Shown here piece after piece: positions 1 through 14,793 of a DNA stretch of 14,793 nt. The position numbers and the translations under genes are program-made. Position 1 is the stretch's first letter, and each line of letters begins with the position of its first letter. The notes under the pieces are model-generated. The model was given only the letters and a program-made list of their open reading frames with translations. It made no database searches and was not told the DNA's origin. Origin of the DNA: a virus; the UHGV virus genome UHGV-0120184; one strand, given 5' to 3'.

Positions 1-404
1 CCATCAGCCCGGAAAAAGCCAGAGAACTCAAAACCGCCGGGATCAACGCCTGGCGGAACAGAATGGAATCAGCCAGTTATATTTTCAGCTTTAATGGCCG
101 TAACTGGGATTATGGAAAGGAAACACAGGATCGCCTTGGCCCATCAGTTATCGCAGCAAAAGAAGGCAATCTCCCGGAGAAGTTTTTCTGGACAGACGCA
201 GACAACAACGACGTCCCCATGACTGCGGAAGAACTGATTGCGCTGAGTGAAGCCGCGCAACAGGCAATGTTCGCGAAGGGAATGGAAATTCATGTGCGCC
301 AGCGCAACATGAAAAAAGAGATTGCAGAACTTCAGGATGCGGAGGCCATTCAGCGTTACGTTGTGGGCTGGCCCACAACGGAAGAACCCGCCACCGAAAG
401 ATGA
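1..404 (+). CDS. Putative tail-fibre assembly/chaperone-like protein, C-terminal part (5' end lies outside the window)
   Basis: Frame 3 is open from position 3 through the stop at 402-404, so the 113-aa ORF in the track is the tail of a longer protein. It sits where the tail-fibre assembly gene lies in P2-like phages, adjacent to the tail genes. An 'NLPEKFFW' segment resembles Tfa-like proteins. The canonical lambda/P2 Tfa C-terminal motif (ATDEE..L..W..YRV.L.RVD) is NOT present, so the assignment is tentative. Confidence 0.35.
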   Translation, partial: ISPEKARELKTAGINAWRNRMESASYIFSFNGRNWDYGKETQDRLGPSVIAAKEGNLPEKFFWTDADNNDVPMTAEELIALSEAAQQAMFAKGMEIHVRQRNMKKEIAELQDAEAIQRYVVGWPTTEEPATER

Positions 405-412
405 ACAGCAAA

Positions 413-441
413 AACGCCCTGACACCAGGGCGTTATTATTT
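413..441. terminator. Bidirectional rho-independent terminator between the converging Tfa-like and gpU genes
   Basis: The stem aacgccctg (413-421) pairs with cagggcgtt (426-434) around a 4-nt loop. It is followed by ATTATTT on the plus strand and TTTTTGCTGTT on the minus strand. Confidence 0.55.
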
Positions 442-913
442 AAACCGGAATGGACAGATTATTCAGGGCACCTTTGACGTTATTCGCAAGATCACCAAGC
501 GACGAGGACTGAAGACGTTCACGCAGATCTTCATCCACACGCTCAAAAGTGACAGTAAACTCAATCTTTCTTGCCCGACCATAGCGATCAAGTTCAGAGC
601 GGGTGGTGTTAAGCCCGGTAATGACATACATCCCGTAAATCTGCCCTACCCCATCAATCAGCGGCCATGGTCGCCCGACGTAAGCCTGGCTGGTCAGTGC
701 GGTCAGGGAGACTTCACCGCCCGTAATTTCCGGGTAGAGCAAACCCGAAAGCGTGATGGTATCGTCACCCGCGCCGATATACTGCCAGCTGGCTGAGCGG
801 TTGATTCGCTCGTTCTTTACATGCCTCCAGTTACGGGACTGTTGTATTTGTTGGTATGGCAGTGTGCTTAACTGAAAAACAAACATGCCGTAAATCATCA
901 TCATAACCATCAC
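440..913 (-). CDS. U: P2 gpU-like tail protein
   Basis: The translation (MMVMMMIYGMFVFQ...GGEVSLT...WPLIDG.G.IYGMYVI...RVDE...) matches my recollection of P2 gpU. The start is GTG at 913 or ATG at 910, lying 2 nt after the TAG stop of the T gene (916-918), which implies translational coupling. Confidence 0.8.
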   Translation of the reverse strand: MMVMMMIYGMFVFQLSTLPYQQIQQSRNWRHVKNERINRSASWQYIGAGDDTITLSGLLYPEITGGEVSLTALTSQAYVGRPWPLIDGVGQIYGMYVITGLNTTRSELDRYGRARKIEFTVTFERVDEDLRERLQSSSLGDLANNVKGALNNLSIPV

Positions 914-915
914 TC

Positions 916-3747: not shown

Positions 3748-4275
3748 CGTTATGATTCCCGGTTCTGACGGCCGCCCGTTCTCGCCAGGCAACCAGTTCA
3801 CCGGGAGTCATCACAAAGATTTCAGAGGGCGACCAGTGAAATACAACGGCTATATCAGCGACAATATCTTCAACGTAATCAAAAGCAAGAAGCGTTACGC
3901 GCCGCCCGCCTCCTGCGCCTTCTTCGCTGACGAGGGAAGCAAAAAACCGACTGCCACCTCGTACAGTTTAAAGAAGTCTTCCGGGCACATTGACATAAGT
4001 GCCGCGCGGCTGAGGTGAGGTTCAGTTACGCGTTCCAGAAAAATGGCGGCAGCATCAACATCGGTGTTGAACAGGTCCGTCATGCGGATCCCTCGAAGCG
4101 AGCCCACCTGACGCGCAAGCGCCCCAATCTTCACGCTGGAAACCGTCTTATTACCGCAGACAACAGGAACCCTGAGATTAACCGTGTCATTTGCGATCGC
4201 CTCTGCGTTTTCCGTGTCGCCATTCGTCACAGCATCTGTGTCATTCGTCACGATATTTTCTTCAGTCTGATCCAT
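3740..4275 (-). CDS. E': gpE+E' product of a programmed -1 ribosomal frameshift
   Basis: The slippery heptamer TTTTTTG (minus strand, plus coordinates 3946-3940) matches the conserved P2 E/E' and lambda G/GT signal. The -1 frame downstream is open for ~66 codons (ASLVSEEGAGGGRRVTLLAFDYVEDIVADIAVVFHWSPSEIFVMTPGELVAWRERAAVRTGNHNDE). It ends at TAA 3742-3740, overlapping the T start codon. Confidence 0.7.
3895..4275 (-). CDS. E: Tail assembly chaperone gpE-like
   Basis: It lies immediately upstream of the tape measure gene. An SD GGGAGA sits 6 nt before the ATG at 4275. A T-TTT-TTG slippery heptamer lies near its 3' end (see E+E'). Confidence 0.8.
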   Translation of the reverse strand: MDQTEENIVTNDTDAVTNGDTENAEAIANDTVNLRVPVVCGNKTVSSVKIGALARQVGSLRGIRMTDLFNTDVDAAAIFLERVTEPHLSRAALMSMCPEDFFKLYEVAVGFLLPSSAKKAQEAGGA

Positions 4276-4326
4276 TATTTTTCTCCCGGGGCAACAGGAC
4301 GCCGCCCCTGTTATCAGATTTAACTA

Positions 4327-4839
4327 TCAGCCAAGCCCCAGCATGGAGCGGGTGCGGTCAGGAAGAACATCCTTACCATCAATGCGCCAGATGAAGTTCA
4401 GCACGTCGATTTCAATAACATCGCTGTTATCAACGCTGAGCTTGTACCAGGTGCATTTCATCGCATAGGTATGTTCGGTATCTTCACCCTGTTTGGCCTC
4501 GCCCTTGTCGATTTCGACAATGCGACCACGGGCTTCAATATCGACGTACTCAATCCCTTCTTCGGAATAGTATTCACCCGAGAAGCGAACACGCACGGCA
4601 TCAATACCGGCGGCGTATTTGGCAAAGATGTGACGATCGACGCCACCAACCGCAAAGGAGAGATCCAGTGCACCATCATCAAGACCGAGATCCACCGACG
4701 CAGAGCCTGGCATCCCCGCCCCGCGATACGACTCTGTTTTACGGGTCAGTTTTGGCGGGGTAAAAGACGCCACCTTGCCCAGCTTGTTGTCACCGTCCAC
4801 AAAGACGGTAAACACACGAAGTTTTTTTGGTACGGCCAT
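4327..4839 (-). CDS. FII: Tail tube protein (P2 gpFII-like)
   Basis: The translation (MAVPKKLRVF...LTRK.E.YRGAGM.GSA..DLGLDD.A...GEGKQGEDTE...) matches P2 FII as I recall it. Its ATG overlaps the FI stop in a TAATG junction at 4839-4841. Confidence 0.9.
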   Translation of the reverse strand: MAVPKKLRVFTVFVDGDNKLGKVASFTPPKLTRKTESYRGAGMPGSASVDLGLDDGALDLSFAVGGVDRHIFAKYAAGIDAVRVRFSGEYYSEEGIEYVDIEARGRIVEIDKGEAKQGEDTEHTYAMKCTWYKLSVDNSDVIEIDVLNFIWRIDGKDVLPDRTRSMLGLG

Positions 4840-6032
4840 TAGCTACCTCCAAGAGATGCAAAAGCAGAGCCAAAGAACTCGTCGGTAAACGTCTGATAGA
4901 GTTCCATACACTCCATCGGCGGAACAGGCGTGTATTTGTAGCGAATACGCACAATGCCCTGACGAAGACTGGTTGTGCCGTTGTCGATGATATCGAACCA
5001 GCACTCAGCCCCGATGAGTTTTCCGGCTGTCACCAGTGCATCCAGCTTTGCCTTGATAGCGCTCACGGCATCCTTAGCATTGGCAGGCGTAAGCGGTGAA
5101 TCCACTATCTGAAGTTGCGCCTCCGCAATGGTGTCAGCCAGTTGCTGCGCCGTACGTGTGTACACCTCAAAGATGTACTCCGCAGTTTCCGGCGTACGGT
5201 TACCCCAGAAACGGAAGGAGCCGTCGCCCTGGTGAATAAGAGTGGTCACCTCGCTATTGTTCAGCGTGTTGGCATCGCTGTTTTCATCCTGAAGTGACCA
5301 GGAAACAGACGCTGACACCCCAAGAACATTTTTCACAGGCATGTTAGAAAGGGAGCGATGCCAGCCCTGTTCATGGTCGAGTCGGGCACGAAGACCGCAC
5401 GCATACGCCGCAGCCGGGAAGGTTTCGTTTTTACCGGACACCGGGTTGAACGCAATGAAATCAGGCCACAGAAGCATGATTTCGCGACCGGAAATCTTTT
5501 TACGGAACGCAATAGCATCGGACGGTTTTGTGCAGCCAGGGCAGCCGGAATACGCAAATGCGCGCATTTTTCCGGCAACAGTCACCAGTGCAGCCGTGAC
5601 AGCATCCGATTCAAGGCCCGGAGCGGCAAGAATGCGGGGTCGGTAACCAATACCTTCCATCTGTTCGGCAACCAGAAGCGCCTGCATACCGCTGTAGCTT
5701 CCGTCTTCTTCCGTGGTACCAATGACCAGTTGATCCTGTGTTTTATTCTCAGCCCCCTCTTTTGCCGCCTCCACGCGAACGACAATCACCCGTGTACTGA
5801 CCTGGTCAGATATCGCTTTAAGGGCCTTATAAAGCGTGCCCGCTTTCCCGGCCTTCCCCAGAACAGAAGATACACGGGTAATCAGCACAGGCTTGTTAAG
5901 GGGGAACTGCCCGGTATCCGCATCATCTGCAACGGCAACAATACCAATGACGCTGGAATCAACGTCATTAATGGCCGTCACAAGGTCGGTATTCTCCGTG
6001 ACGCGCACACCGTGAAATCGTTTTTCAGCCAT
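4839..6032 (-). CDS. FI: Contractile tail sheath protein (P2 gpFI-like), ~397 aa
   Basis: The translation (...HGVRVTE...FPLNKPVLIT...KAGKAGTL...) matches P2 FI. The preferred start is ATG at 6030-6032 (MAEKRFHGV), preceded by GGTGA 5 nt upstream. The track ORF starts 4 codons earlier at 6044 but has no SD. Confidence 0.9.
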   Translation of the reverse strand: MAEKRFHGVRVTENTDLVTAINDVDSSVIGIVAVADDADTGQFPLNKPVLITRVSSVLGKAGKAGTLYKALKAISDQVSTRVIVVRVEAAKEGAENKTQDQLVIGTTEEDGSYSGMQALLVAEQMEGIGYRPRILAAPGLESDAVTAALVTVAGKMRAFAYSGCPGCTKPSDAIAFRKKISGREIMLLWPDFIAFNPVSGKNETFPAAAYACGLRARLDHEQGWHRSLSNMPVKNVLGVSASVSWSLQDENSDANTLNNSEVTTLIHQGDGSFRFWGNRTPETAEYIFEVYTRTAQQLADTIAEAQLQIVDSPLTPANAKDAVSAIKAKLDALVTAGKLIGAECWFDIIDNGTTSLRQGIVRIRYKYTPVPPMECMELYQTFTDEFFGSAFASLGGS

Positions 6033-6107
6033 ACGATTCACCATCAGTTGTGTTTATGCTCGCCTGAATAATCCACCATTGGCGCACAGCCCTCACCTGA
6101 TGCGGGC

Positions 6108-6125
6108 TGTGGGGATTTTTTTACA
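6108..6125. promoter_or_regulatory. Ogr/Delta-type activator box (TGT-N12-ACA) in the FI/D divergent intergenic region
   Basis: TGT (6108-6110), then the 12-nt spacer ggggattttttt, then ACA (6123-6125). On the minus strand a -10-like GATTAT (plus 6074-6069) lies ~45 bp from the dyad centre. This places the dyad at about -55 of an FI promoter, as in P2 late promoters. No convincing -10 is seen for a plus-strand (D) promoter. Confidence 0.5.
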
Positions 6126-6185
6126 ACAGAGCCGGACAGAAACGACAAGGTACGCGTGGGATGATACGCACACGGGAGGGATATC

Positions 6186-7331
6186 ATGAGCATCACTGAA
6201 TCAGTAACACATCACATCAACAGCGCACTGGATGCAGCGGAAGATACCGTTAGGGTGCCAGACTTCACTATCACACTGGAAGGGAAAGATGCCAGCCTGA
6301 AGAACATCACGCAGCGCATCATGAGCCTGACCATGACAGACAACAGGGGTTTTGAGGCTGACAGGGTGACACTGGAAATCGACGACGCCGACGGCGGGGT
6401 GGTACTTCCGGAGCGCGGAACACGATTATCGCTGGCGATGGGATGGAAAGGTGAAAGCCTCACTCGCAAGGGGGCGTTTGTGGTGGACGAAGTGAGCCAC
6501 GAAGGTCCGCCGGATAAGCTGACCATATCCGCGAACAGTGCGGATTTTCGCGAAGAGTTTAACGTGAAACGCGAAGTCTCCTGGCATGACGTGACCGTTG
6601 AGCGTGTGGTATCTGCCATCGCGCACCGTTACGGACTGAAAGCACAAATCAGCGAAATGCTGATGAATATCGAAATCGACCATGCAGACCAGACAGAGGA
6701 AAGCGACATCTCGTTCCTCACGCGTATGGCTGACATGCTGGGTGCAATAACCACCGTAAAAAACGGGTGCCTGCTGTTCATTCTGCCGGGTGGCGGTGTG
6801 ACAGCCAGCGGGCGCGCCCTCCCCTCATTCGCCCTGACCCGCTCGGATGGCGACAGTCATCGCTTTCGCATTGCTGACAGAAAAGCCTATACCGGAGTGA
6901 AAGCTTACTGGCTGGATTTAAAGTTCGGCCAGAAGAAGGCCGTGAACGTGAAAAAGCGAAACGCGAAAACCACACAGAAGCCGGAGAAAAGCAGTTCACG
7001 GGAGGGTGGATACATGGAAGGCGCAGAAGGCAATGTGTATGTGCTGAGAAAAACCTACCCGAACGAAGAAGCCGCGCGTCGCGCAGCTGCCGCACGCTGG
7101 CAGCAACTTCAGCGGGGTGCAGCAGAATTCAGCATCACGCTGGCGCGCGGACGCGCCGACCTGTATCCGGAGATGCACGGCACGGTATCCGGGTTCAAGA
7201 GCGACATTGACAATCAGGACTGGATTATTTCGCGCATTGAGCACGTCATCGACGACAGCGGCTTCACCACCAGACTGGAGCTGGAAGCAAAAATCGCAGA
7301 CTGGATAGCAGAGCGCGCCACGACTGGCTAG
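6186..7331 (+). CDS. D: P2 gpD-like tail protein (late control D family)
   Basis: The N-terminal and central regions (MS.T.S......L.....MSLT.TDNRGFEAD...I..DD.DG.V.LP.RG......GW.G.....KG.F.VDE..H.G.PD.L...A.SADFR......R.ESWHD.T...V..IA.R) match P2 gpD closely. An SD GGGAGGG sits 5 nt before the ATG. Confidence 0.9.
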   Translation: MSITESVTHHINSALDAAEDTVRVPDFTITLEGKDASLKNITQRIMSLTMTDNRGFEADRVTLEIDDADGGVVLPERGTRLSLAMGWKGESLTRKGAFVVDEVSHEGPPDKLTISANSADFREEFNVKREVSWHDVTVERVVSAIAHRYGLKAQISEMLMNIEIDHADQTEESDISFLTRMADMLGAITTVKNGCLLFILPGGGVTASGRALPSFALTRSDGDSHRFRIADRKAYTGVKAYWLDLKFGQKKAVNVKKRNAKTTQKPEKSSSREGGYMEGAEGNVYVLRKTYPNEEAARRAAAARWQQLQRGAAEFSITLARGRADLYPEMHGTVSGFKSDIDNQDWIISRIEHVIDDSGFTTRLELEAKIADWIAERATTG

Positions 7332-7372
7332 AATGAGCGCGAGCCCACCCCGTTTCAGCCAGGGGGACCATC

Positions 7373-7675
7373 ATGCATCCTTGCCCATACTGCGGAGCAA
7401 GTACCCGCACCAGAACAAGCCGCGACGCCAACGATACAGGAACAATCAGGGAGAAATATTACCAGTGCAACAACATTGAATGCAGCGCCACCTTTGTGAC
7501 GCACGAGTTTGTCGTGAGAACCGTATGCCGTCCGCAACCCACCGAAGAACGGGGAGTCGTCCCCGCAGACGCTTTCAAATCATGCCACCGGGGAAGGGAT
7601 CAACTCAGCCTCCCCCTGGGCGATTGCGCCTCCCAGTCAAAAACTGTACATTACGCGCGGGTGCCTTTCGGCTGA
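7373..7675 (+). CDS. ogr: Ogr/Delta-family zinc-finger late-gene transcriptional activator (100 aa, longer than the 72-aa P2 Ogr)
   Basis: The N-terminus MHPCPYCGASTRTRTSRD....REKYYQCNNIECSATF matches the Ogr C4 zinc finger (CPxC ... KYYQC..x..C.ATF). It follows D as in P2. Confidence 0.85.
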   Translation: MHPCPYCGASTRTRTSRDANDTGTIREKYYQCNNIECSATFVTHEFVVRTVCRPQPTEERGVVPADAFKSCHRGRDQLSLPLGDCASQSKTVHYARVPFG

Positions 7676-7805
7676 CGGCTGGAAGGATTACCTGAAGGCC
7701 GGATGTGGAAAGGCCCCGGAAAACATCTCTGTTTAGCCGAGGCCCTAATCTACATATCTTTAGCAAGTAGAAGGTTAGCGCCTCTTTGAAAAAGGAGCAA
7801 GCGCT

Positions 7806-7946
7806 ATGCCGCAAAAAACGATCATCGTGAGCATTTTATGCTTAACCATGTTGTTGACCGTCTGGATGATACATCGTTCACCATGTGAATTCAGACTTAA
7901 CATCATGTGGTCAGAATTTGCGGCGTTCTTGCAGTGTAAACCGTAA
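7806..7946 (+). CDS. hok: Hok/Gef-family type I toxin (46 aa; closest to HokA by recall)
   Basis: Translation: MPQKTIIVSILCLTMLLTVWMIHRSPCEFRLNIMWSEFAAFLQCKP. It has the MPQK start, a single transmembrane segment, the conserved C-E-x-R and E(V/F)AAF(L/M) motifs and an AAGGAG RBS 8 nt upstream. It is followed by structured hairpins and a strong terminator, as expected for the stable hok mRNA 3' end. Confidence 0.75.
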   Translation: MPQKTIIVSILCLTMLLTVWMIHRSPCEFRLNIMWSEFAAFLQCKP

Positions 7947-7954
7947 GAAACCGC

Positions 7955-7976
7955 AGCGGGGGTGAAAGCCCCCGCT
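7955..7976 (+). other. GC-rich stem-loop just after the hok stop (candidate fold-back/3' structural element of hok mRNA)
   Basis: agcggggg (7955-7962), loop tgaaa, then gcccccgct (7968-7976). No T-run follows, so this is probably structural rather than a terminator. Confidence 0.4.
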
Positions 7977-8040
7977 ATCCGGTTGCCGAAGGTTCGGTCG
8001 AAAGCCGCACCCGTGCATGCAAGTGACAAAGAAAAAACAA

Positions 8041-8073
8041 AGCCCGCAGCGTAAAAACTGCGGGCTTTTTTAT
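8041..8073 (+). terminator. Rho-independent terminator (likely hok transcript end; A-rich upstream so possibly bidirectional)
   Basis: agcccgcag (8041-8049), loop cgtaaaaa, ctgcgggct (8058-8066), then TTTTTTA. Confidence 0.7.
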
Positions 8074-8110
8074 TCACATACCGAAGGTGTGGTAACTGCC
8101 TGGGTTCAGA

Positions 8111-8137
8111 CCAAAAAAAGCCCCATAAAATGGGGCT
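8111..8137 (-). terminator. Rho-independent terminator for minus-strand transcripts (end of the AT-rich membrane-protein operon)
   Basis: The minus strand reads AGCCCCA-TTTTA-TGGGGCT followed by TTTTTTTGG (plus-strand stem 8119-8125 and 8131-8137, A-run 8113-8119). Confidence 0.6.
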
Positions 8138-8284
8138 GAAGATTCTGTAAGGAATTTCACAGCAATGAGATTCTAGTCTCTTCCAATGATATATGAGTCT
8201 TCAGCCTGAATCAATGGGGCATGACTGTGAATCCACCGACGATCAAAACTTGCACAATGCCTGAAGTTGAGTTAGAAAAGTACC

Positions 8285-8345
8285 GGGCGCGATATCCGGT
8301 TTATTTTTTGTTGCTGTGTTTTGCCTCGTGCCGGATATCGCGTCC
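8285..8345. repeat. Long inverted repeat: 12-15 bp arms, each containing an EcoRV-like GATATC palindrome, around a T-rich 31-nt loop
   Basis: cgcgatatccgg (8288-8299) and ccggatatcgcg (8331-8342), extendable by three flanking pairs (two G-C and one G-U wobble). A T5 run follows on the plus strand. It lies between the minus-strand operon and its terminator. Confidence 0.4.
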
Positions 8346-8432
8346 ACCGTTTTTCTGATGATTCTTATGAAATCGTACTTTATTGATTTACTGCCATCCT
8401 GGTTTGTCTTTTTATGTTCATTATTGCGACAG

Positions 8433-8828
8433 TCATTTCCTGTTTCTGGTGATGTTTTGATAAAAGTGAAAGAATAAAACGATCATTGCAGAAGGTATTG
8501 CTAAAACCATACATATCATTATATAAACAAGATGAAAATGATATATACCATAAGACCAGAAAAAAGGTTTTTTCCAGAATGATATGGATGTGTATTTTAG
8601 TGTAATTGTTTTTGTCAGGTATATTGAACAAGGAAGAGCCAGGCCACTGAGTATCAGAAATAAGTCAACTTTTATCGATGCTTCTGTTGGTGTGTCATAT
8701 ATAAGATGCAATATGGATATTATAATGGGGCACATTCCCCACAGGATATTTTTGAAATAGAATTTCCGGTTCATATGTTTATGCTCTTTGGTTTTATCCC
8801 GGGAATTGGCGCTTTGTTTTTTATTCAT
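8433..8828 (-). CDS. Small predicted multi-pass membrane protein (131 aa in the track; the start may be the internal Met 19), AT-rich
   Basis: Open frame in a ~1.3 kb strongly AT-rich segment. It has 3-4 hydrophobic helices and starts at/overlaps the stop of the upstream 223-aa ORF (ATGA-type coupling). No recognisable family. Confidence 0.5.
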   Translation of the reverse strand: MNKKQSANSRDKTKEHKHMNRKFYFKNILWGMCPIIISILHLIYDTPTEASIKVDLFLILSGLALPCSIYLTKTITLKYTSISFWKKPFFWSYGIYHFHLVYIMICMVLAIPSAMIVLFFHFYQNITRNRK

Positions 8829-9492
8829 GAACGTTTTCGTTGTTTAATAACCATGGGGTATTATGATTATCCTTTATTTTTGATATGTAATTGTCAATAG
8901 TGGATTTCGTTTCATTATTGTGGTTATAGTAATCATGAAGAGTGCAAAACACATCATCTTTTATTGTGGCGATTAATGGGGCTTGTGTGAGGGTAAAATA
9001 TAAAGAACGATTACTTAGTGTCCTGAAATAAATTTTTTCGCCAATGACCAGATCGGTGTTCATTATATTGTAGCCTATTTCAAATATATTGTTTGATGGC
9101 ATGTGTAATACATATGTGGGGTATTTGTTGTGTTTTTTCATTAAATAATAAATAAAATCAGATACAGGCATCTGTTTTAGTTTTTTTTGCATCTTCCTTA
9201 TGTGTTGTGACATTAATATCATTTTCGAGAGAATGCATAAGAGACTAAACAAGAGATTAAATACTATGTTCAGTACTATCAGAGTAACAAACAGGCCAAT
9301 GCTCCTTAGCGCTGAAAATATATTGTCATTGTAAATATACTGGAATGTATATCCGGCTGATAAAAATGCCAATATATATAACACTATGTCTGTTTTATTT
9401 CGCTTTTTTATTTTGTAGGTTATTGCTGATTTTAAGAATAAGATGGCAATAAGAGCAGTGATAACCCAGAAAAATATAACGGAAACTTCCAT
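8821..9492 (-). CDS. Predicted membrane protein (223 aa): N-terminal ~3 transmembrane helices plus a ~130-aa Asn/Lys/Tyr-rich soluble C-terminal domain
   Basis: Long ORF in the AT-rich island. An AAAGG RBS sits 7 nt before the ATG at 9492. A promoter-like TTTACA-N17-ATAAAT and a palindrome lie upstream. No family recognised. Confidence 0.6.
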   Translation of the reverse strand: MEVSVIFFWVITALIAILFLKSAITYKIKKRNKTDIVLYILAFLSAGYTFQYIYNDNIFSALRSIGLFVTLIVLNIVFNLLFSLLCILSKMILMSQHIRKMQKKLKQMPVSDFIYYLMKKHNKYPTYVLHMPSNNIFEIGYNIMNTDLVIGEKIYFRTLSNRSLYFTLTQAPLIATIKDDVFCTLHDYYNHNNETKSTIDNYISKIKDNHNTPWLLNNENVHE

Positions 9493-9542
9493 AATTATAC
9501 CTTTATCGTGTTTTCAGGGAGGTAATTTATCATTGTGCTGAT

Positions 9543-9562
9543 ATGCATGTAAATACATGCAT
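9543..9562. promoter_or_regulatory. Perfect 9-bp inverted repeat (ATGCATGTA-aa-TACATGCAT), a candidate operator overlapping the putative promoter of the 223-aa gene
   Basis: Palindrome seen directly in sequence. It lies 50-70 bp upstream of the ATG at 9492, on the transcribed side. Confidence 0.35.
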
Positions 9563-9690
9563 TATCTGTTTCTTATATTCTTTTTATGAAGTTACTGATT
9601 AATTTATATTAAAACAACACATTCATAATGAAATCAACATGTTCATATGGTTGACGGCAGATTTCTCTTTTTGTTAACCTGCATCTGCAT

Positions 9691-9939
9691 TAACTGTCGC
9701 TTCGGCGACCACCAATGTTCCATAGTGGCCTGTGAGGAACGCCTTCGGGTGGCCCATGTCGCTCCGGCGACCACCAATGCTCCATATGACCTGTGAGGAG
9801 CGCCTTCGGGTGGTCAGTTTTACACCTCCGTAGCCTGAAAGGAGCTGTGAGTACTGAAGGGAAACATCCCTGATGTATGGGCAAATCTGCACACCTTTGA
9901 GAGCAGATGTCACTACGGTTTTACGTGATGATGAAGGCA
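9691..9939. repeat. Direct repeat copy 1 (~249 bp), containing two tandem ~62-bp sub-repeats (9696-9757 and 9758-9817) and a hairpin-rich 3' half
   Basis: It is ~98% identical to 12484-12733 (constant offset 2794; the central ~170 bp are identical). Sub-repeat unit: gtcgctYcggcgaccaccaatgYtccataKRRcctgtgaggaRcgccttcgggtggYcMR. It has a cgcc-UUCG-ggug tetraloop-type hairpin and a gaccacc/ggtggtc stem. ORFs 9674..9940 and 9690..9884 (-) overlap it in two frames and look like repeat artefacts. Confidence 0.9.
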
Positions 9940-10117
9940 TTCCGGATTCCGTTCCGGTACTTTTATTTTTTCTCAGCAGACAGGCATAAAAACGCCTTTA
10001 AAATCTGCGTCTTAAGATATTTTCTGACTTTCCGCATGAGCTTCTTATGACTGTGCGCACGGCATAAGACCATTTGAAATTTGGTCGCTTGCGTGTGCAT
10101 GTGGAGTTTGAAGCTGT

Positions 10118-10163
10118 GCGGCGTCACTTGCGTGCGACCGAAGGGAACACCAAGTGACGCCGC
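10118..10163. repeat. 13-bp perfect inverted repeat (gcggcgtcacttg ... caagtgacgccgc) with a 20-nt loop, in the GC-rich leader region upstream of the recombinase gene
   Basis: Arms at 10118-10130 and 10151-10163. Further hairpins lie nearby (tgcc-ctgaa-ggca at ~10171-10183; cgtccgt-tttcaca-cggacg at ~10291-10309). Confidence 0.6.
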
Positions 10164-10210
10164 GGCCATCTGCCCTGAAGGCAGCATCACGTAAGGTCTG
10201 GCAGAAAATC

Positions 10211-10260
10211 GTCGCTCGTGACAAGCGTCCTGATGCTCGTTTTGTCGCTCTGACAACGTC
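10211..10260. promoter_or_regulatory. Two direct repeats of a TGACAA-containing motif (gTCGCTCgTGACAAgCGTC / gTCGCTC-TGACAA-CGTC), iteron-like candidate protein-binding sites
   Basis: Units at 10211-10229 and 10244-10260. TGAC/GTCA cores recur across 10120-10275. Confidence 0.35.
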
Positions 10261-10605
10261 TTTCGGTGACGTATCCACGCCTTTCCGGCGCGTCCGTTTT
10301 CACACGGACGGCCACGCCGGAATGTCTTCTTAAACTTCGTAATACATGAGAGGTAAGTGTATTAACTGACTGAAATAAAGGAATAAAAATGAAAAATCGT
10401 TCTGATGTCGGGAGGCGTCATCGTAAGGTGACGGGGAGTATTCCTCAACAATCGCCCTGGTGCACAGGTAGCGAACTCCTGTAAGAACTCAACATGTGCA
10501 AGCTCTGCTACATCGACATCAAACGAGCCAGGAAGGCGAACAACCGCGTTACAGAGCCGTCCGTGATGACGAAAAACTAACAATATCAACGAACTTTTCT
10601 GTTTA

Positions 10606-10660
10606 CCGGAAGGGCTGCGTATGCAGTTTTACTTTGTGAACGGAAGGGGGCTGCATCTGA
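10606..10660 (+). promoter_or_regulatory. Pair of ~20-bp direct repeats (cGGAAGGGcTGCgTaTGcA / cGGAAGGGggCTGCaTcTGA) immediately upstream of the recombinase gene
   Basis: Repeats at 10606-10626 and 10640-10660. An SD GGGAGA and the ATG at 10683 follow. Confidence 0.35.
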
Positions 10661-10682
10661 TTTTTACAGGGAGAATGACTTT

Positions 10683-11600
10683 ATGGCCCGGAAATCGTCA
10701 CGTTCTAAAGTTGAACTGTTTCGCAAGTCTTTCATCTCACTTGCCCGTGAGTGTGGTGGCAGTTACGCAACAACAGCTGACAGAATGAGAATTGCAAAGT
10801 ACTTCCTGAATTATTTACGTGAAAATGGAATTAAACTTCGCCAGACGAGCAGTATTAAAACCAGACATATTTCTGGTTACCTTCTCAGCAGGAAAGCAGC
10901 GGGTATTTCTCACCGGACTATTCAGAATGAACGGGCGGTTATGCGTGCCATTTTAGAAAAAGATGGACGACTTAAAATCGCAGATCCTTCTAACCCATTA
11001 TTGAGTAATGAAGCGCTCGGCCTAAAGGATACATGCCGTGATGGAAAGAAAATAGCATTGTCACCGGATGAATTCTGGAAAGCATTTGCTAAAGTGGAAA
11101 AAAAGAATCCTGGTGTGGCAGCTGCAATGCAGCTTTCTTATGTTCTGGGTTTAAGAACAAAAGAAGCCGTTCAGTCATGTAAGTCTGTTCAGTCATGGCT
11201 ACGGGAACTGAATTCAGGGTGCGATTCTCTTTCGGTCGTTTTTGGTACGAAAGGTGGAAGACCAAGAAATACCACAATTATTGACAGAGATGCGGTAAGA
11301 CATGCTTTGCTTTATGCTCAAAAAATAATGGATGAACACGACGGAAAACTTATTGACCGTCCAAATATAAAACAGGCTATCAATGTTTTTCGTTATCATG
11401 CCCGTAAAGCGGGATTGTCAGGAGTGAAATCTCCGCACAGTATGCGTTATCATTTTTCTCAGGAAGCCAGAAAATTTTATCGAAAAAATGGATATGGAGA
11501 GTCGGAAATCTACGCTCGTGTTTCTATGGATCTTGGCCATGGTGACGGAAGAGGTCGTTATGTAAAACAGGTTTATTTTAACGGTTCTGATGAAAGTTGA
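10683..11600 (+). CDS. Tyrosine site-specific recombinase (phage-integrase family), 305 aa
   Basis: The catalytic-domain signature is visible: box I LGLRTKEA (Arg), a GTKGG lysine hairpin, box II HSMRYHF (His-x-x-Arg), and LGHGDGRGRYVKQVY (His ... Tyr nucleophile). The N-terminus has a core-binding (SAM-like) domain pattern (IKLRQ.SSIKTRHI..Y......G.S.RTI.NE....R). Confidence 0.8.
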   Translation: MARKSSRSKVELFRKSFISLARECGGSYATTADRMRIAKYFLNYLRENGIKLRQTSSIKTRHISGYLLSRKAAGISHRTIQNERAVMRAILEKDGRLKIADPSNPLLSNEALGLKDTCRDGKKIALSPDEFWKAFAKVEKKNPGVAAAMQLSYVLGLRTKEAVQSCKSVQSWLRELNSGCDSLSVVFGTKGGRPRNTTIIDRDAVRHALLYAQKIMDEHDGKLIDRPNIKQAINVFRYHARKAGLSGVKSPHSMRYHFSQEARKFYRKNGYGESEIYARVSMDLGHGDGRGRYVKQVYFNGSDES

Positions 11601-11603
11601 TAT

Positions 11604-12341
11604 TTAAAATGAATCTGGAGGATATGTGTTTTTGTTAATTTCGGTTATGATGATTTCTGATGCGCGATTACACATATCTTCATCAAAATACCCAATATGA
11701 CATTCATGAATGTGACAATTCAGTTTTCTGGATAGCCATATATTTGCCTCGTTACGGGATATGTTGGCTCTTTGCTGATAATTGTCAAAAAGTTTACGTA
11801 CTTTTGTTCTGAGTATTCTCAGGTTTTCTTTAGCCGGAGTACCTAATGGTCTTCCTGAGTTTTTATGGCATCCAACCCATGCATTGCATGGGGGACAAAT
11901 CCAGTAATATTTGTTTTCTGTCGCGGCTGAAATGGAAAATGGCATGAGAGCCCCTTTTATAAGATTCGTCTTATTTCCACAGTATGGGCAGATAACAATT
12001 GGTCGGACATCTGCAATATTCAGTGATGTATAAGTCAGTCGTTCATTTTTAACGATGTTTCTCTTTCCGCAATGGGTGAGAACATGCTTTATTGTATCTA
12101 ATTCTTCTCGTAGTATTTTGGAACTGACGCCAGTGCGATAACGTTGTTGAAAATAGCATTCAATATGACGTAGTTTTATGCTATTTGCTGAGCTTATCTG
12201 TATATTGGCATCTTTAAGAAATGAAGCAAGTCTTCTGGCTCTTCCCGTATATACCAACATATCTTCTGGCGTCGGGGCGCATGCTTTGGCTATTCTGAGT
12301 AGTTCATCTTTTAATTTTTTGTATTTCGATTTCATTTTCAC
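11604..12341 (-). CDS. Recombinase-N-domain paralog lacking a catalytic domain, fused to an Ogr/Delta-like C4 zinc ribbon (245 aa)
   Basis: Its N-terminal ~90 aa aligns with the N-domain of the adjacent recombinase (SFLKDANIQISSANSIKLRHIECYF..RYRTGVSSKILREELDTIKHVL versus YFLNYLRENGIKLRQTSSIKTRHISGYL..RKAAGISHRTIQNERAVMRAIL). The C-terminus has CPYCG-x26-CPPC with ENKYYWIC, paralleling the Ogr finger in this same window (CPYCG...REKYYQC..C), plus an extra CHIHECH cluster. No R/HxxR/Y catalytic motifs. A promoter-like CTGACA-N17-TATTTT lies upstream. Confidence 0.65.
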   Translation of the reverse strand: MKMKSKYKKLKDELLRIAKACAPTPEDMLVYTGRARRLASFLKDANIQISSANSIKLRHIECYFQQRYRTGVSSKILREELDTIKHVLTHCGKRNIVKNERLTYTSLNIADVRPIVICPYCGNKTNLIKGALMPFSISAATENKYYWICPPCNAWVGCHKNSGRPLGTPAKENLRILRTKVRKLFDNYQQRANISRNEANIWLSRKLNCHIHECHIGYFDEDMCNRASEIIITEINKNTYPPDSF

Positions 12342-12483
12342 ATCTCTCTTACAGGTTCATAAAGAGTGTTACTGAATTAAAAAATATCAAATTGAGCTGG
12401 CCTTGTCAGTCAGCTGTAGGTTATTACCATAGCCACGACAACAACTTGAAGTTTTATGTTGTTTATGATTATATTTTAGACGC

Positions 12484-12733
12484 TAACTTGTCGCTCCGGC
12501 GACCACCAATGTTCCATAGTGGCCTGTGAGGAACGCCTTCGGGTGGCCCATGTCGCTCCGGCGACCACCAATGCTCCATATGACCTGTGAGGAGCGCCTT
12601 CGGGTGGTCAGTTTTACACCTCCGTAGCCTGAAAGGAGCTGTGAGTACTGAAGGGAAACATCCCTGATGTACGGGCAAATCTGCACACCTTTGAGAGCAG
12701 ATGTCACCACGGTTTTACGTGATGATGAAGGCA
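12484..12733. repeat. Direct repeat copy 2 (~250 bp), same internal tandem sub-repeat structure as copy 1
   Basis: See copy 1. ORFs 12469..12678 and 12483..12782 (-) are repeat artefacts mirroring those across copy 1. Confidence 0.9.
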
Positions 12734-12735
12734 CT

Positions 12736-12745
12736 TTGTATACAA
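12736..12745. promoter_or_regulatory. Perfect 10-bp palindrome TTGTATACAA immediately flanking repeat copy 2
   Basis: Seen directly in sequence. Possible operator or recombination-site element. Confidence 0.25.
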
Positions 12746-12807
12746 TGTGACTATGAGTTGTCTCTGGTCTTCTTAAGCGCATCGTGCTGACGCATTGATG
12801 TGTTCAC

Positions 12808-12851
12808 CTGACGGATTTTCCAGTCCGTCAGGGCGGAACGTCCGTCTTTTT
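12808..12851 (+). terminator. Tandem stem-loops followed by T5 (terminator or attenuator) just upstream of the 12867 gene
   Basis: ctgacgg (12808-12814) pairs with ccgtcag (12825-12831). Then cgga-acg-tccg (12834-12844) is followed by tcttttt. Confidence 0.45.
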
Positions 12852-12866
12852 CATTCGGAGGTTCCG

Positions 12867-13268
12867 ATGTTTATACCACTTTTGTTACGTGCAGATATGC
12901 GCATAACGCCTTTCTTTCATCTTCTCAGACAATGTCTGTTTAATCAGAAGCGTTGTGTTCACCCACAACAGCCCTGGTCCGCTCCACAACTGAGGCATCT
13001 GTACTGCACTCCGTGGTTTATTAACGCCACCGGCAATCTGTCAGTCAGAGCCTGCATTGTTTCCACCAACGGTGCATTGCGACACTGCTTTGAGTTCCGT
13101 GAAGGCTCTCACAGCCGTGAATATCGTTACTGGTTTGAGGCACTTCCGCTGTCTGTCGTGCGGTTTAATGTCTTTACCGGTCGAATATCTGCTCGCCGCA
13201 CGCTTTCTGCTGCCTCCCGTATGGCCGTGCAGCTTACTTCTTTTCGCTATCGCTTCGGTCTTCGCTGA
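12867..13268 (+). CDS. Hypothetical protein (133 aa, Arg/Cys/Trp-rich); coding status uncertain
   Basis: The ATG at 12867 is preceded by GGAGG at a good distance. The composition is unusual and no family was recognised. The track ORF begins earlier at 12795. Confidence 0.35.
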   Translation: MFIPLLLRADMRITPFFHLLRQCLFNQKRCVHPQQPWSAPQLRHLYCTPWFINATGNLSVRACIVSTNGALRHCFEFREGSHSREYRYWFEALPLSVVRFNVFTGRISARRTLSAASRMAVQLTSFRYRFGLR

Positions 13269-13380
13269 AGCCTGTTGAACGGTCGTCATGACCGTTGAAA
13301 GGTTTATCACACAACGCCCGGATCTGTCTGACCGTACCACGCGTGCGCGATGACAAATCTGAGTTTTCCTTAACCCGTCC

Positions 13381-13418
13381 GGGACCGCTCCCGTTCGGGG
13401 ACGGTCCCGCTGTTTTTA
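13381..13418 (+). terminator. Rho-independent terminator
   Basis: gggaccg (13381-13387), inner mini-hairpin cccg-ttcg-ggg, cggtccc (13402-13408), then GCTGTTTTTA. Confidence 0.55.
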
Positions 13419-13432
13419 TCAGGAGATTGTTT

Positions 13433-13813
13433 ATGGGACTCGATATTTTTTTCCTTGGGCGTGATCGTGTTACCGACGCGGTAGTATCGGTACCGGAAAC
13501 GCGGGAAGTGGGTTACTTTCGCAAGGTTAACCCACTGATTGCCTGGTTTGAGACGCATTGTGGACCGGTTGAAAATGCCGTGGAGCGTCCGGTTTCCAGA
13601 ACGGAACTGGAGGCACTACTGAGCGATCTTGAATGCCTTACGCCGGAGAACTGCCGGGAATTCTTCCCCACAACAGAAGGATTCTTTTTTGGTTCTCAGG
13701 AGTATGACCAGTATTACTGGAAGGATGTTGAGATCGTGAAATCGTGGGTCAGAAGCACGCTTGATTCGTTTGATTTTGAACGAAAAATACTGTTGCTCTG
13801 GGCATGGTGGTAA
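13433..13813 (+). CDS. Hypothetical protein (~126 aa) ending ...SWVRSTLDSFDFERKILLLWAWW
   Basis: The ATG at 13433 has AGGAG 7 nt upstream and follows a terminator. The ORF is open to 13813. A paralogous C-terminal fragment lies at 14359-14508. Confidence 0.5.
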   Translation: MGLDIFFLGRDRVTDAVVSVPETREVGYFRKVNPLIAWFETHCGPVENAVERPVSRTELEALLSDLECLTPENCREFFPTTEGFFFGSQEYDQYYWKDVEIVKSWVRSTLDSFDFERKILLLWAWW

Positions 13814-13913
13814 TTATTTTTCTGTCCTTGTTTTTAACCTTATTACCCTGTCGGGAACATGTGTCCCGTAGGGCAGGTGTGTTCCCGTAATTTTTTGTAT
13901 CTGAGGTGAACAC

Positions 13914-14393
13914 ATGAATAGTCTGTTAATACTCCTTTACGTTGTTGTATGCCGTGCCTGCACCATTCTTCGGGTAATCGCACCAGTGTCGTCTGTCCGT
14001 GCGTGGTGTGAGTATCAACTGGAAGGTATGACGATACTTCGTGATGCGTACAGCTCGCTGGCTAAGGCGGCTGGAATGCAGAATGATGCATTTGAATATC
14101 TTGAAAGTATTGCTCGTCATCTGGGCTACGAAAGCGGTGGTGACCAACTGAAATCAGGACTTTTCCGGCCGTTTCTGTGGCATATACGTGCGAAAGGCCA
14201 CAGGCTGGGAGCTGTCATGGAAATGGCGGTATGGCAGGCATGGAAGAATGGCTGTAACGATGTCTGCAATCCATGGGAGGATGTCTACAATCCATGGGAC
14301 CGTGGATGGAACGATGGCTGGACTGAATGTCTGGATCAACGTATAGCCGGTCTCCTGAAGGCGGTCTGTATTGACTTTTCCGACGCCGACTGA
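13914..14393 (+). CDS. Hypothetical protein (159 aa) with a Trp/Asn-rich C-terminal repeat (NPWEDVYNPWDRGWNDGW)
   Basis: The ATG at 13914 has GAGGTG 5 nt upstream and a hairpin plus T-run in the preceding intergenic. No family recognised. Confidence 0.5.
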   Translation: MNSLLILLYVVVCRACTILRVIAPVSSVRAWCEYQLEGMTILRDAYSSLAKAAGMQNDAFEYLESIARHLGYESGGDQLKSGLFRPFLWHIRAKGHRLGAVMEMAVWQAWKNGCNDVCNPWEDVYNPWDRGWNDGWTECLDQRIAGLLKAVCIDFSDAD

Positions 14394-14508
14394 ACGGTTT
14401 TTCTTTTACTTACTGTACCGTGTACCTGCGTCGGTGGCGTGGGTCAGCGATACGCTGAAGACGTTTGATTTTGAGCGTCATTCACTGGTGATGCTGGCGT
14501 TGTGGTAA
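14359..14508 (+). pseudogene. Start-less C-terminal gene remnant paralogous to the 3' end of the 13433-13813 gene
   Basis: The frame from 14359 reads ...VPASVAWVSDTLKTFDFERHSLVMLALW*. This parallels ...VKSWVRSTLDSFDFERKILLLWAWW* of the upstream gene. It has no plausible start codon and is out of frame with the preceding ORF. Confidence 0.4.
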
Positions 14509-14600
14509 GTCCGGCCAGTCTGATTTTCGTTATTAATTTAACCGTATGGTGCATGTTCACCGTACGGGGAGCATGCATCTTTTTTATGGAGCGTGCTCTT

Positions 14601-14753
14601 ATGAAAACGAAAAAACATACTTCATGTCCCGTGAACAAAACCCCGGAGCGTGACCTGTATCAGCTGGTGACGGACAGGGTGATTGAGGCCATCGAAAAGG
14701 GCGTAGCCCCCTGGCAACGTCCATGGCGCTCAGTACGGTGTCAGCGCCAGTGA
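14601..14753 (+). CDS. Truncated ORF whose N-terminus resembles the ArdC-N (DUF1738-type) ssDNA-binding/antirestriction family; likely pseudogene or disrupted
   Basis: The ATG at 14601 has GGAGCG upstream. MKTKKH...DLYQLVTDRVIEAIEKGVAPWQRPW matches the ArdC-N hallmark (.LYQ.VTD.II.A.E.G..PW..PW). It stops after 50 codons, with stops in all frames before the window end, whereas family members are much longer. Confidence 0.4.
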   Translation: MKTKKHTSCPVNKTPERDLYQLVTDRVIEAIEKGVAPWQRPWRSVRCQRQ

Positions 14754-14793
14754 TATAAGACGGTAATTCACCATTTGGATTGTCCGCTCCACC

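What the first reader, a model, noticed from the sequence alone, without database searches (positions are those of the whole stretch)
8380..9660. Strongly AT-rich two-gene operon of novel membrane proteins inserted next to the prophage end, with a palindromic operator
Composition drops sharply relative to both flanks, which is typical of horizontally acquired cargo. The operon encodes a 223-aa protein (3 TM plus soluble domain) coupled to a 131-aa polytopic membrane protein, with a 9-bp perfect inverted repeat over its putative promoter and a dedicated terminator. Small membrane-protein pairs at prophage borders are often superinfection-exclusion, abortive-infection or toxin/immunity modules. 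Neither protein matches a family I recognise.
Basis: partly seen in the sequence, partly recalled or inferred. Interest (0 to 1): 0.55.

Follow-up and report, generated by a model that had tools for sequence, protein, structure and literature searches.

The report
Orphan colicin immunity gene on ICE
The AT-rich pair is cargo of an E. coli integrating conjugative element, not of the prophage: the small gene is a diverged, mostly unannotated, toxin-less ('orphan') relative of colicin E1/Ia immunity proteins, and the larger gene belongs to a rare membrane-protein family of unknown function.

Summary
The raw observation holds. Window 8380-9660 has 31% GC, against 55% and 46% in the flanks, and carries two co-oriented minus-strand ORFs longer than chance allows.

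The interpretation needs correcting in three ways.
1. The small ORF is not novel. It is a diverged member of the colicin E1/Ia pore-forming-colicin immunity family: hhalign probability 98.2%, E 4e-14, with a clean shuffle control, matching hydrophobic segments and a shared N-terminal motif. No colicin gene or remnant is detectable nearby or annotated anywhere on the ~81-kb element, so it is an orphan.
2. The locus is not prophage cargo. The P2-like prophage ends at about 8074. The locus belongs to an SPI-7-type ICE and to the urease/tellurite island of O157/O111 strains, and occurs in 589 of 5426 complete E. coli genomes.
3. The 223-aa protein belongs to a real but rare family with no curated family or structural match. 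Its relatives elsewhere are stand-alone AT-rich genes, so the pair is not a conserved module.

The palindrome is perfect here but degenerate in the majority allele. No terminator lies inside the stated range.

Verdict: a new member of a known kind, of moderate interest.

The parts
8433..8774 (-). Orphan colicin E1/Ia-family immunity gene in its conserved 113-aa form.
   Evidence: hhalign against ColE1/ColIa/Klebsiella/Serratia immunity proteins gives probability 98.2%, E 3.8e-14, over 102 columns. The shuffle control scores 11.5 +/- 2.1 against a real score of 80.3. About 1298 weak tblastn hits on plasmids land almost all on genes annotated as colicin Ia/E1 immunity. NCBI names two close relatives 'colicin immunity protein, partial'. 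Three hydrophobic segments sit at the same positions as in ImmE1. dN/dS is 0.26-0.36. The start at Met19 is conserved in 3 alleles.
8775..8820 (-). 46-nt spacer between the two genes, with an SD-like AAAGAG 9 nt upstream of the ATG at 8774.
   Evidence: Read from the sequence. The same 46-nt spacing is found in allele L022. Co-transcription is inferred, not shown.
8821..9492 (-). 223-aa inner-membrane protein of a rare uncharacterised family. It has three N-terminal TM helices and a C-terminal alpha/beta domain of about 125 aa that is predicted to be cytoplasmic.
   Evidence: Only 27 representatives were found among 1.84 billion proteins. Alignment A4 shows conserved motifs. The AF2 model has mean pLDDT 81.9. 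There is no Pfam, NCBIfam, PADLOC or family-wide PHROG match. There is no structural neighbour. dN/dS is 0.21-0.42 for the C-terminal domain and 0.55-1.0 for the TM part. Loop charges of +5 and +6 flanking TM1/TM3 indicate an N-out, C-in topology.
9493..9694 (-). Upstream non-coding region with consensus-level sigma-70 matches (-35 TTTACA 9553-9548 / -10 TAAATT 9529-9524; -35 TTCATA 9590-9585 / -10 GATAAT 9566-9561). The stretch from about 9560 to 9650 is nearly invariant between alleles.
   Evidence: Promoter scan: 13 sites found against 8.7 +/- 2.6 expected, which is not significant. Allele alignment.
9543..9562 (.).
   Evidence: Verified. It arises by chance in 2% of simulated upstream regions and 11% of simulated loci. 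The left arm is ATGTGTGTA (two substitutions) in the O111/O157 allele.
8274..8356 (.). Stable long hairpin 76 nt downstream of the immunity gene's stop codon. Its first part forms a canonical plus-strand terminator (8282-8300).
   Evidence: the repeat finder I1. The minus-strand fold is -31 kcal/mol with z = -4.08. The terminator scan finds the plus-strand site. The two allele substitutions are wobble-compatible only on the plus strand (my reading).
8119..8137 (-). Canonical intrinsic terminator on the coding strand (8-bp stem, 3-nt loop, U7), about 296 nt after the immunity stop codon. It is the likely end of the transcription unit.
   Evidence: Terminator scan; sequence.
7622..8074 (+). End of the P2-like prophage (3' end of ogr, sok-like RNA, hok/gef at 7806-7946). 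It is also present as a remnant beside the locus in the ICE and the O-islands.

Best explanation
The locus is accessory cargo of an SPI-7/PFGI-1-type integrating conjugative element. The same block also occurs in the urease/tellurite island of O157:H7 and O111.

Its downstream gene encodes a 113-aa, three-helix inner-membrane protein homologous to the immunity proteins of E1-type pore-forming colicins (E1, Ia, Ib). By analogy with those proteins, it would sit in the cytoplasmic membrane and bind the hydrophobic or voltage-responsive helices of an incoming colicin channel domain, blocking the pore. The element's host would thus be protected from a competitor's toxin without making one, which is the definition of an orphan immunity gene. 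At 25-31% identity to known immunity proteins, the cognate toxin is unknown.

The upstream 223-aa gene is an independent, horizontally mobile gene for a membrane-anchored protein with a cytoplasmic domain and no known function. The two are probably co-transcribed here from an AT-rich promoter region, ending at the terminator at 8137-8119.

Shown: homology, topology pattern, purifying selection, ICE/island location, and absence of a toxin gene. Inferred: protective function, target colicin, co-transcription, and any role for the 223-aa protein.
For: - Homology of the small ORF to the ColE1/Ia immunity family.
- Real coding genes under purifying selection, with ORFs longer than chance.
- Conserved 113-aa start.
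- ICE/island context in 589 of 5426 genomes.
- Prophage end at about 8074.
- No colicin remnant by tblastn in the window and two 25-kb loci.
- No bacteriocin annotated on the ~81-kb ICE.
- Orphan pore-former immunity genes are a documented, selected phenomenon in E. coli plasmids: PMC12546727.
- The 223-aa gene is separable. Its homologues stand alone, or have a different partner in the same ICE slot, and its synonymous divergence differs from the immunity gene's (0.30 against 0.09).
Against: - The Pfam PF03526 score is below gathering (14.7 against 25 bits).
- Identity to characterised immunity proteins is only 25-31%.
- No cognate colicin is known, and no closer relative was found next to a toxin.
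- PGAP does not call the ORF in several complete genomes.
- Expression was not tested.
- The orientation differs from classical operons, where the immunity gene is convergent with the colicin gene.
- AT-rich DNA is likely to be H-NS-silenced (general knowledge), so the gene may be poorly expressed.
Confidence: 0.68

Rival explanations
1. One reading: a phage-related two-gene module at a prophage border, acting in superinfection exclusion, abortive infection or as a toxin/antitoxin.
For: The locus lies about 350 bp from the end of a P2-like prophage in this window. Both products are small membrane proteins. There are weak single-member PHROG hits: phrog_12739 at E 7e-4 and phrog_22982 at E 2e-4.
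Against: - The locus is outside the prophage. The same prophage elsewhere runs ogr-hok-serS without the locus.
- In 589 genomes the locus is in an ICE or O-island, beside only a prophage-end remnant.
- There is no match among 50,697 phage records.
- There are no PADLOC hits.
- The PHROG hit is not shared by the family.
- The small protein has a specific, different family assignment.
Confidence: 0.08
2. The 223-aa protein and the immunity homologue work together as one protective unit. The 223-aa protein could be a second, new kind of immunity protein against another membrane-acting toxin (an 'immunity islet'), or an accessory factor for the small protein.
For: - The genes have the same orientation and a fixed 46-nt spacer in three alleles.
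- Both are AT-rich.
- The TM part of the 223-aa protein evolves fast (dN/dS 0.55-1.0) while its soluble domain is conserved. That is the pattern expected if the helices track a variable toxin.
- Orphan immunity genes commonly cluster (general knowledge).
Against: - Homologues of the 223-aa gene occur alone in ordinary chromosomal sites, or with an unrelated soluble 105-aa neighbour in the same ICE slot.
- No family member was seen next to a toxin gene.
- The two genes have different synonymous divergence.
- There is no match to A-type colicin immunity or any other immunity family in Pfam or NCBIfam.
Confidence: 0.12
3. The 223-aa protein is the ICE's entry-exclusion factor: an inner-membrane protein in recipients that blocks redundant transfer, like ExcA, TraS or Eex.
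For: - It occupies the same slot between the integrase/ArdC block and TraG_N in two ICE relatives that share only 42% identity.
- Its architecture resembles IncI1 ExcA (216 aa, N-terminal TM helices, basic juxtamembrane helix, soluble C-terminal domain).
- One family member gave a marginal NCBIfam ExcA hit at E 0.004.
- Alleles are polymorphic.
Against: The profile comparison with ExcA gives probability 0.2%. Other family members lie in non-conjugative chromosomal contexts: efeUOB-phoH, LacI-family sugar loci, and DUF1440. The family is far rarer than this ICE type.
Confidence: 0.07
4. The small ORF is a decaying relic with no current function, left over from an ancient colicin operon.
For: It is not annotated by PGAP in several genomes. 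There is no cognate toxin. The N-terminal extension region is unstable. Truncated and frameshifted versions exist in the databases (P0009-P0013).
Against: - The 113-codon frame is intact in three alleles at 31% GC.
- dN/dS is 0.26-0.36.
- It is the most conserved stretch of the locus, with 2-3 differences per 100 nt against 8-14 in the flanks.
- An SD-like element is retained.
Confidence: 0.12

Closest known systems
Colicin E1 immunity protein (ImmE1; Pfam PF03526 'Colicin E1 (microcin) immunity protein')
   Same: Same length (113 aa). Three hydrophobic segments at matching positions (9-27, 31-55, 75-106 against 7-26, 33-50, 80-112). Shared motifs: N-terminal [KR][FY]Y[FI]KNIL.G, a central P.S.Y...[IL]...F, and C-terminal LAIP.
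   Different: About 26% identity. The Pfam score is below gathering. There is no adjacent convergent cea gene and no lysis gene. It lies on a chromosomal ICE or island rather than a small Col plasmid, and downstream of and co-oriented with an unrelated membrane-protein gene.
Colicin Ia/Ib immunity proteins (Iia/Iib) of IncI1/IncF plasmids
   Same: Best pairwise similarity, about 30% over 87% of the length. The first four residues MNRK are identical, and the MNRK[FY]YF.N..WG motif is shared.
   Different: No neighbouring cia or cib gene. The specificity-determining regions have diverged, so cross-protection cannot be assumed.
Orphan bacteriocin immunity genes of E. coli plasmids (PMC12546727)
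   Same: An immunity gene kept without its toxin on a mobile element. Pore-former immunities were the commonest orphan class in that survey (146 of the orphans listed).
   Different: That survey required >99% identity to immunity genes lying next to a toxin, and covered plasmids only. This gene is a diverged lineage on an ICE or genomic island and would be invisible to that screen.
IncI1 surface/entry-exclusion protein ExcA
   Same: The 223-aa protein has a similar size and overall layout (N-terminal TM helices, basic helix, soluble C-terminal domain) and sits on a conjugative element.
   Different: No detectable homology: hhalign probability 0.2%. Family members also occur outside conjugative elements.

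Membership tests
E1-type pore-forming colicin immunity proteins (ColE1/Ia/Ib; Pfam PF03526) | Sequence or profile homology to family members over most of the length | tested here: met
   hhalign probability 98.2%, E 3.8e-14, 102 of 113 columns. Re-run score 80.3, against 11.5 +/- 2.1 for column-shuffled templates and 12.3 for the reversed template. tblastn hits fall almost exclusively on annotated immunity genes.
E1-type pore-forming colicin immunity proteins (ColE1/Ia/Ib; Pfam PF03526) | Score at or above Pfam's curated gathering threshold | tested here: not met
   PF03526 gave E 0.027 and 14.7 bits, against a cut-off of 25. The model covers only 55 positions.
E1-type pore-forming colicin immunity proteins (ColE1/Ia/Ib; Pfam PF03526) | About 110-115 aa with three transmembrane helices | tested here: met
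   113 aa. Kyte-Doolittle segments at 9-27, 31-55 and 75-106 parallel those of ImmE1.
E1-type pore-forming colicin immunity proteins (ColE1/Ia/Ib; Pfam PF03526) | Located next to, and convergent with, a cognate pore-forming colicin gene | tested here: not met
   No colicin-like sequence by tblastn in the window, L001 or L002. None is annotated across the ~81-kb ICE or in the O111 island segment. Reference loci show the canonical arrangement.
E1-type pore-forming colicin immunity proteins (ColE1/Ia/Ib; Pfam PF03526) | Confers specific protection against a pore-forming colicin | not testable with these tools
   This needs colicin spot or killing assays with the cloned ORF.
Known anti-phage defence / superinfection-exclusion proteins | Match to a defence-system or phage protein family, or presence in phage genomes | tested here: not met
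   PADLOC gave 0 hits for both proteins, and only marginal single-member hits across the family. There is no DNA match in 50,697 phage records. The PHROG hits are weak and not family-wide.
IncI1 ExcA entry-exclusion family (NCBIfam NF033891) | Homology of the 223-aa family to ExcA | tested here: not met
   hhalign of A4 against ExcA of pMHMC-003 gives probability 0.2%. Only one of 22 members hit NF033891, at E 0.004.
A-type colicin immunity proteins or other curated immunity families (for the 223-aa protein) | Pfam or NCBIfam match | tested here: not met
   No family is shared by more than one of 22 members.
Conserved two-gene operon | The gene pair is kept together across divergent relatives | tested here: not met
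   The pair is kept in three E. coli alleles. The 42%-identical homologue has an unrelated 105-aa neighbour. Other homologues have no partner.

The most novel reading that the evidence does not exclude
The 223-aa family (three fast-evolving TM helices plus a conserved cytoplasmic small beta-barrel/helical domain, scattered as AT-rich single-gene islets) could be a new class of membrane-embedded protective protein. It might give immunity against a membrane-acting toxin, or act as an exclusion factor of SPI-7-type ICEs. In that case it would form, with the diverged colicin-immunity homologue, a dedicated 'immunity islet' carried into new hosts by the ICE and by the O157/O111 island.
Probability: 0.15. 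Interest if true: 0.6.

Novelty: new member of a known kind. Interest (0 to 1): 0.38.

Why it matters
A diverged colicin-immunity homologue goes unannotated in several complete genomes. These include the urease/tellurite island (OI-43/48) of O111 strain 11128 and a record labelled O157:H7 EDL933, as well as an SPI-7-type ICE. The locus occurs in about 11% of complete E. coli genomes. If the gene is functional, these lineages carry resistance to an as-yet unidentified pore-forming bacteriocin.

This bears on gut competition and on proposals to use colicins against STEC. It also extends the 'orphan immunity' phenomenon from plasmids to ICEs and genomic islands, and to sequences too diverged for identity-based screens.

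Separately, the 223-aa family is a clean, small, uncharacterised membrane-protein family with a confident predicted fold and no known relatives.

Tried and rejected
- Curated family scans of both proteins (Pfam, NCBIfam, PADLOC, PHROGs) gave no hits above threshold. Family-wide scans of 22 homologues of the 223-aa protein found no shared family.
- A profile search of PDB sequences gave only a ubiquitin beta1-beta2 hairpin motif resemblance (FYxKTLTGR), inflated by polyubiquitin repeats. I judged it to be motif-level only.
- The ExcA entry-exclusion lead was rejected by hhalign.
- No colicin remnant was found.
- The search for related loci with family alignments failed because no stretch was conserved enough. 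The genome-contig scan with the immunity protein found no credible relative among 185,579 species representatives.
- A literature search by accession returned no papers. A keyword search combining OI-43/OI-48 and colicin listed papers, but I opened none of them, so I have no evidence either way that this gene has been described. The CDI ionophore paper offered no link.
- R64 (AP005147) is not in the plasmid collection.

Full report
**1. Observation.**
Window 8380-9660 has 31.1% GC, against 55.2% on the left (1-7600) and 46.4% on the right (9700-end). On the minus strand lie ORFs 8821-9492 (223 aa) and 8433-8828 (131 aa). The open frames of 230 and 136 codons exceed the maxima of 165 and 126 seen in 2000 composition-matched simulations, so both are more than chance.

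The palindrome ATGCATGTA-AA-TACATGCAT lies at 9543-9562 and overlaps two consensus-level promoter matches. Promoter-like sites are not enriched, though: 13 found against 8.7 +/- 2.6 expected. A palindrome of this quality arises in 2% of simulated upstream regions and 11% of simulated loci. In the majority allele its left arm carries two substitutions.

No terminator lies inside the stated coordinates. Downstream on the coding strand are an atypical but stable hairpin (8274-8356, z = -4.1) and a canonical terminator at 8137-8119.

**2. Where the locus lives.**
The window is E. coli DNA.
- Bases 1-8074 match a P2-like prophage at 99.5%. In strain S1-CAM-02-A this prophage runs tail genes - D - ogr - hok/gef - serS, so hok/gef (7806-7946) is its last gene and the prophage ends at about 8074.
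- Bases 7622-14738 match, at 99.65%, a segment of an ICE in strain S19-651 and about a dozen other strains.
- That ICE is SPI-7/PFGI-1-type and about 81 kb long. It runs from ParA to a tyrosine recombinase next to tRNA-Phe, and carries TIGR037xx transfer genes, a type IVb pilus, ArdC and sigA.
- In the ICE, only a remnant of the prophage end (the 3' end of ogr plus hok) lies beside the AT-rich locus.
- The same block, at 88-94% identity, sits in the urease/tellurite island of O111 strain 11128 (locus L002). Many O157:H7 strains show the same about-94% DNA match.
- In all, 589 of 5426 complete E. coli genomes carry the locus: 13 at 99% identity or more and 572 at 90-95%.
- There is no match among 50,697 phage records.
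- No complete genome contains the window's prophage/ICE junction. The join may therefore be an intact prophage at the ICE-borne site, a recombinant across the 450-bp shared segment, or an assembly chimera.

Either way the locus is ICE/island cargo, not prophage cargo.

**3. The small gene.**
In the O111/O157 allele the ATG at 8828 is AGG and there is a 1-bp indel at 8816. The ORF there, and in a third allele (L022), begins at the window's Met19 (MNRKFYF...), giving 113 aa with a constant 46-nt spacer and an SD-like AAAGAG. This stretch is the most conserved part of the locus, with dN/dS of 0.26-0.36.

Evidence for the family assignment:
- NCBI names two truncated near-identical proteins 'colicin immunity protein'.
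- Pfam gives a sub-threshold colicin E1 immunity hit of 14.7 bits against a cut-off of 25.
- tblastn against 72,556 plasmids gives about 1300 weak hits (25-31% identity, 87-95% coverage). Nearly all lie on genes annotated as colicin Ia or colicin E1-family immunity proteins.
- I took four reference genes. Three sit convergent to a colicin E1, colicin Ia or colicin-like pore-former gene. The fourth, from Klebsiella, has no adjacent colicin gene.
- A profile-profile comparison with these references gives probability 98.2% and E 3.8e-14 over 102 columns.
- The control rules out a composition artefact: real score 80.3, against 11.5 +/- 2.1 (maximum 17.1) for 40 column-shuffled templates and 12.3 for the reversed template.
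- The length (113 aa, identical to ImmE1), the positions of the three hydrophobic segments and the N-terminal motif (MNRKFYFKNILWGM, against ColIa MNRKYYFNNMWWGW and ColE1 MSLRYYIKNILFGLY) all agree.

No colicin-like coding remnant is detectable in the window or in 25 kb of either island. None is annotated on the whole ICE. A scan of 185,579 species-representative genomes finds no credible relative.

The gene is therefore a diverged, narrowly distributed orphan member of the E1-type immunity family. It is not called by PGAP in the complete genomes I inspected.

**4. The large gene.**
The word-indexed search found only E. coli proteins of at least 78% identity. An exhaustive HMMER profile search of 1.84 billion representatives found 27 proteins, with full-length members of 208-228 aa.

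Conserved motifs in the family are MD.SL.FFY at the N-terminus, then WYVLY.PS.N..EIG.N, KFY.KTL.GR, F.C.L..FY and PW.I. No curated family is shared by the members.

Between alleles, the C-terminal domain is under purifying selection (dN/dS 0.21-0.42). The TM part is relaxed or diversifying (0.55-1.0).

Divergent members are AT-rich single genes (29-41% GC against 42-58% in the flanks). They sit in ordinary chromosomal neighbourhoods: efeUOB-phoH, DUF1440, and LacI-type sugar loci. A 42%-identical member occupies the same ICE slot but is followed by an unrelated soluble 105-aa gene.

Synonymous divergence between the window and the third allele is 0.30 for this gene but 0.087 for the immunity gene. 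The two genes therefore have separate histories, and the pair is not a conserved module.

A marginal ExcA hit prompted an entry-exclusion hypothesis, but profile comparison rejects homology (probability 0.2%).

**5. Mechanism.**
Best supported: the 113-aa protein acts as E1-type immunity proteins do. From established colicin biology, these are inner-membrane proteins that intercept the inserted channel domain by helix-helix contact. Here that would protect ICE or island carriers from an unidentified pore-forming colicin without the cost of producing a toxin. Orphan pore-former immunities are documented and argued to be selected in E. coli plasmids (PMC12546727).

The 223-aa protein's role is unknown. 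Ranked guesses:
1. An independent protective or immunity-like membrane protein, based on association with the immunity gene and on its fast-evolving helices.
2. A membrane-anchored defence factor.
3. An ICE exclusion factor.

Co-transcription from the 9493-9660 region through to the 8137-8119 terminator is inferred from geometry only.

**6. Novelty and verdict.**
The small gene is a new, diverged and largely unannotated member of a known family in a less usual vehicle (an ICE or genomic island). The large gene belongs to an uncharacterised family. The phage-border module reading and the conserved-operator reading are not supported. Interest is moderate.

Noticed in passing
window 9695-9868 and 12489-12662 (+): There are two STAXI RNA motifs (78 and 75 bits, above gathering). 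They are the cores of the 245-bp direct repeat (9695-9939 and 12489-12733) and bracket the integrase-domain gene (10683-11600) and the zinc-finger gene (11604-12341). In ICE allele L022 the bracketed block is absent and one STAXI copy remains, which suggests deletion or insertion by recombination between the motifs.
   Followed up: partly
window 10397-10525 (+): An EFASI RNA motif (72 bits, above gathering) lies just upstream of the integrase-domain gene.
   Followed up: no
window 7622-8074: A hok/gef toxin gene (7806-7946) with a sok-like RNA (7659-7816; 45.9 bits, below gathering) is the last gene of the P2-like prophage before attR. The ICE and the O157/O111 islands retain just this prophage end (ogr' plus hok) next to the AT-rich locus, apparently as a relic of an old P2-type integration.
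   Followed up: partly
window 1-14793 (junction 7622-8074): None of 5426 complete E. coli genomes covers 80% or more of the window in one place. The left 8074 bases and the right 7117 bases match different genomes or sites and overlap by about 450 bp. The window may therefore be a recombinant or an assembly chimera.
   Followed up: partly
window 8274-8356: In this long hairpin, the two substitutions seen in the O111 allele keep pairing as G-U on the plus-strand RNA but create mismatches on the minus strand. This hints that the structure serves the plus-strand (hok-side) transcript rather than the immunity operon.
   Followed up: no
window 8433-8774; L001, L002, H49: The 113-aa immunity-like ORF is not annotated by PGAP in the complete genomes inspected. 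These include O111 strain 11128 and a record labelled O157:H7 EDL933.
   Followed up: partly
223-aa protein residues ~153-167 (window ~8990-9036): The family motif F-Y-x-K-T-L-T/S-G-R resembles the ubiquitin beta1-beta2 hairpin (IFVKTLTGK). It produced inflated polyubiquitin hits in the PDB sequence search. This is probably motif-level convergence.
   Followed up: partly
L016 4562-5497: About 3 kb downstream of one divergent 223-aa family member lies a 199-aa gene with a weak Pyocin_S hit, followed by a 112-aa gene. This may be a coincidental bacteriocin/immunity pair.
   Followed up: no
L005 2998-3357 (Klebsiella plasmid NZ_CP072464.1): This is another colicin E1-family immunity gene without an adjacent colicin. 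It sits beside an integrase and a YafO toxin on an IncFIB plasmid that also carries the phage-like genes phoH and gp49.
   Followed up: no
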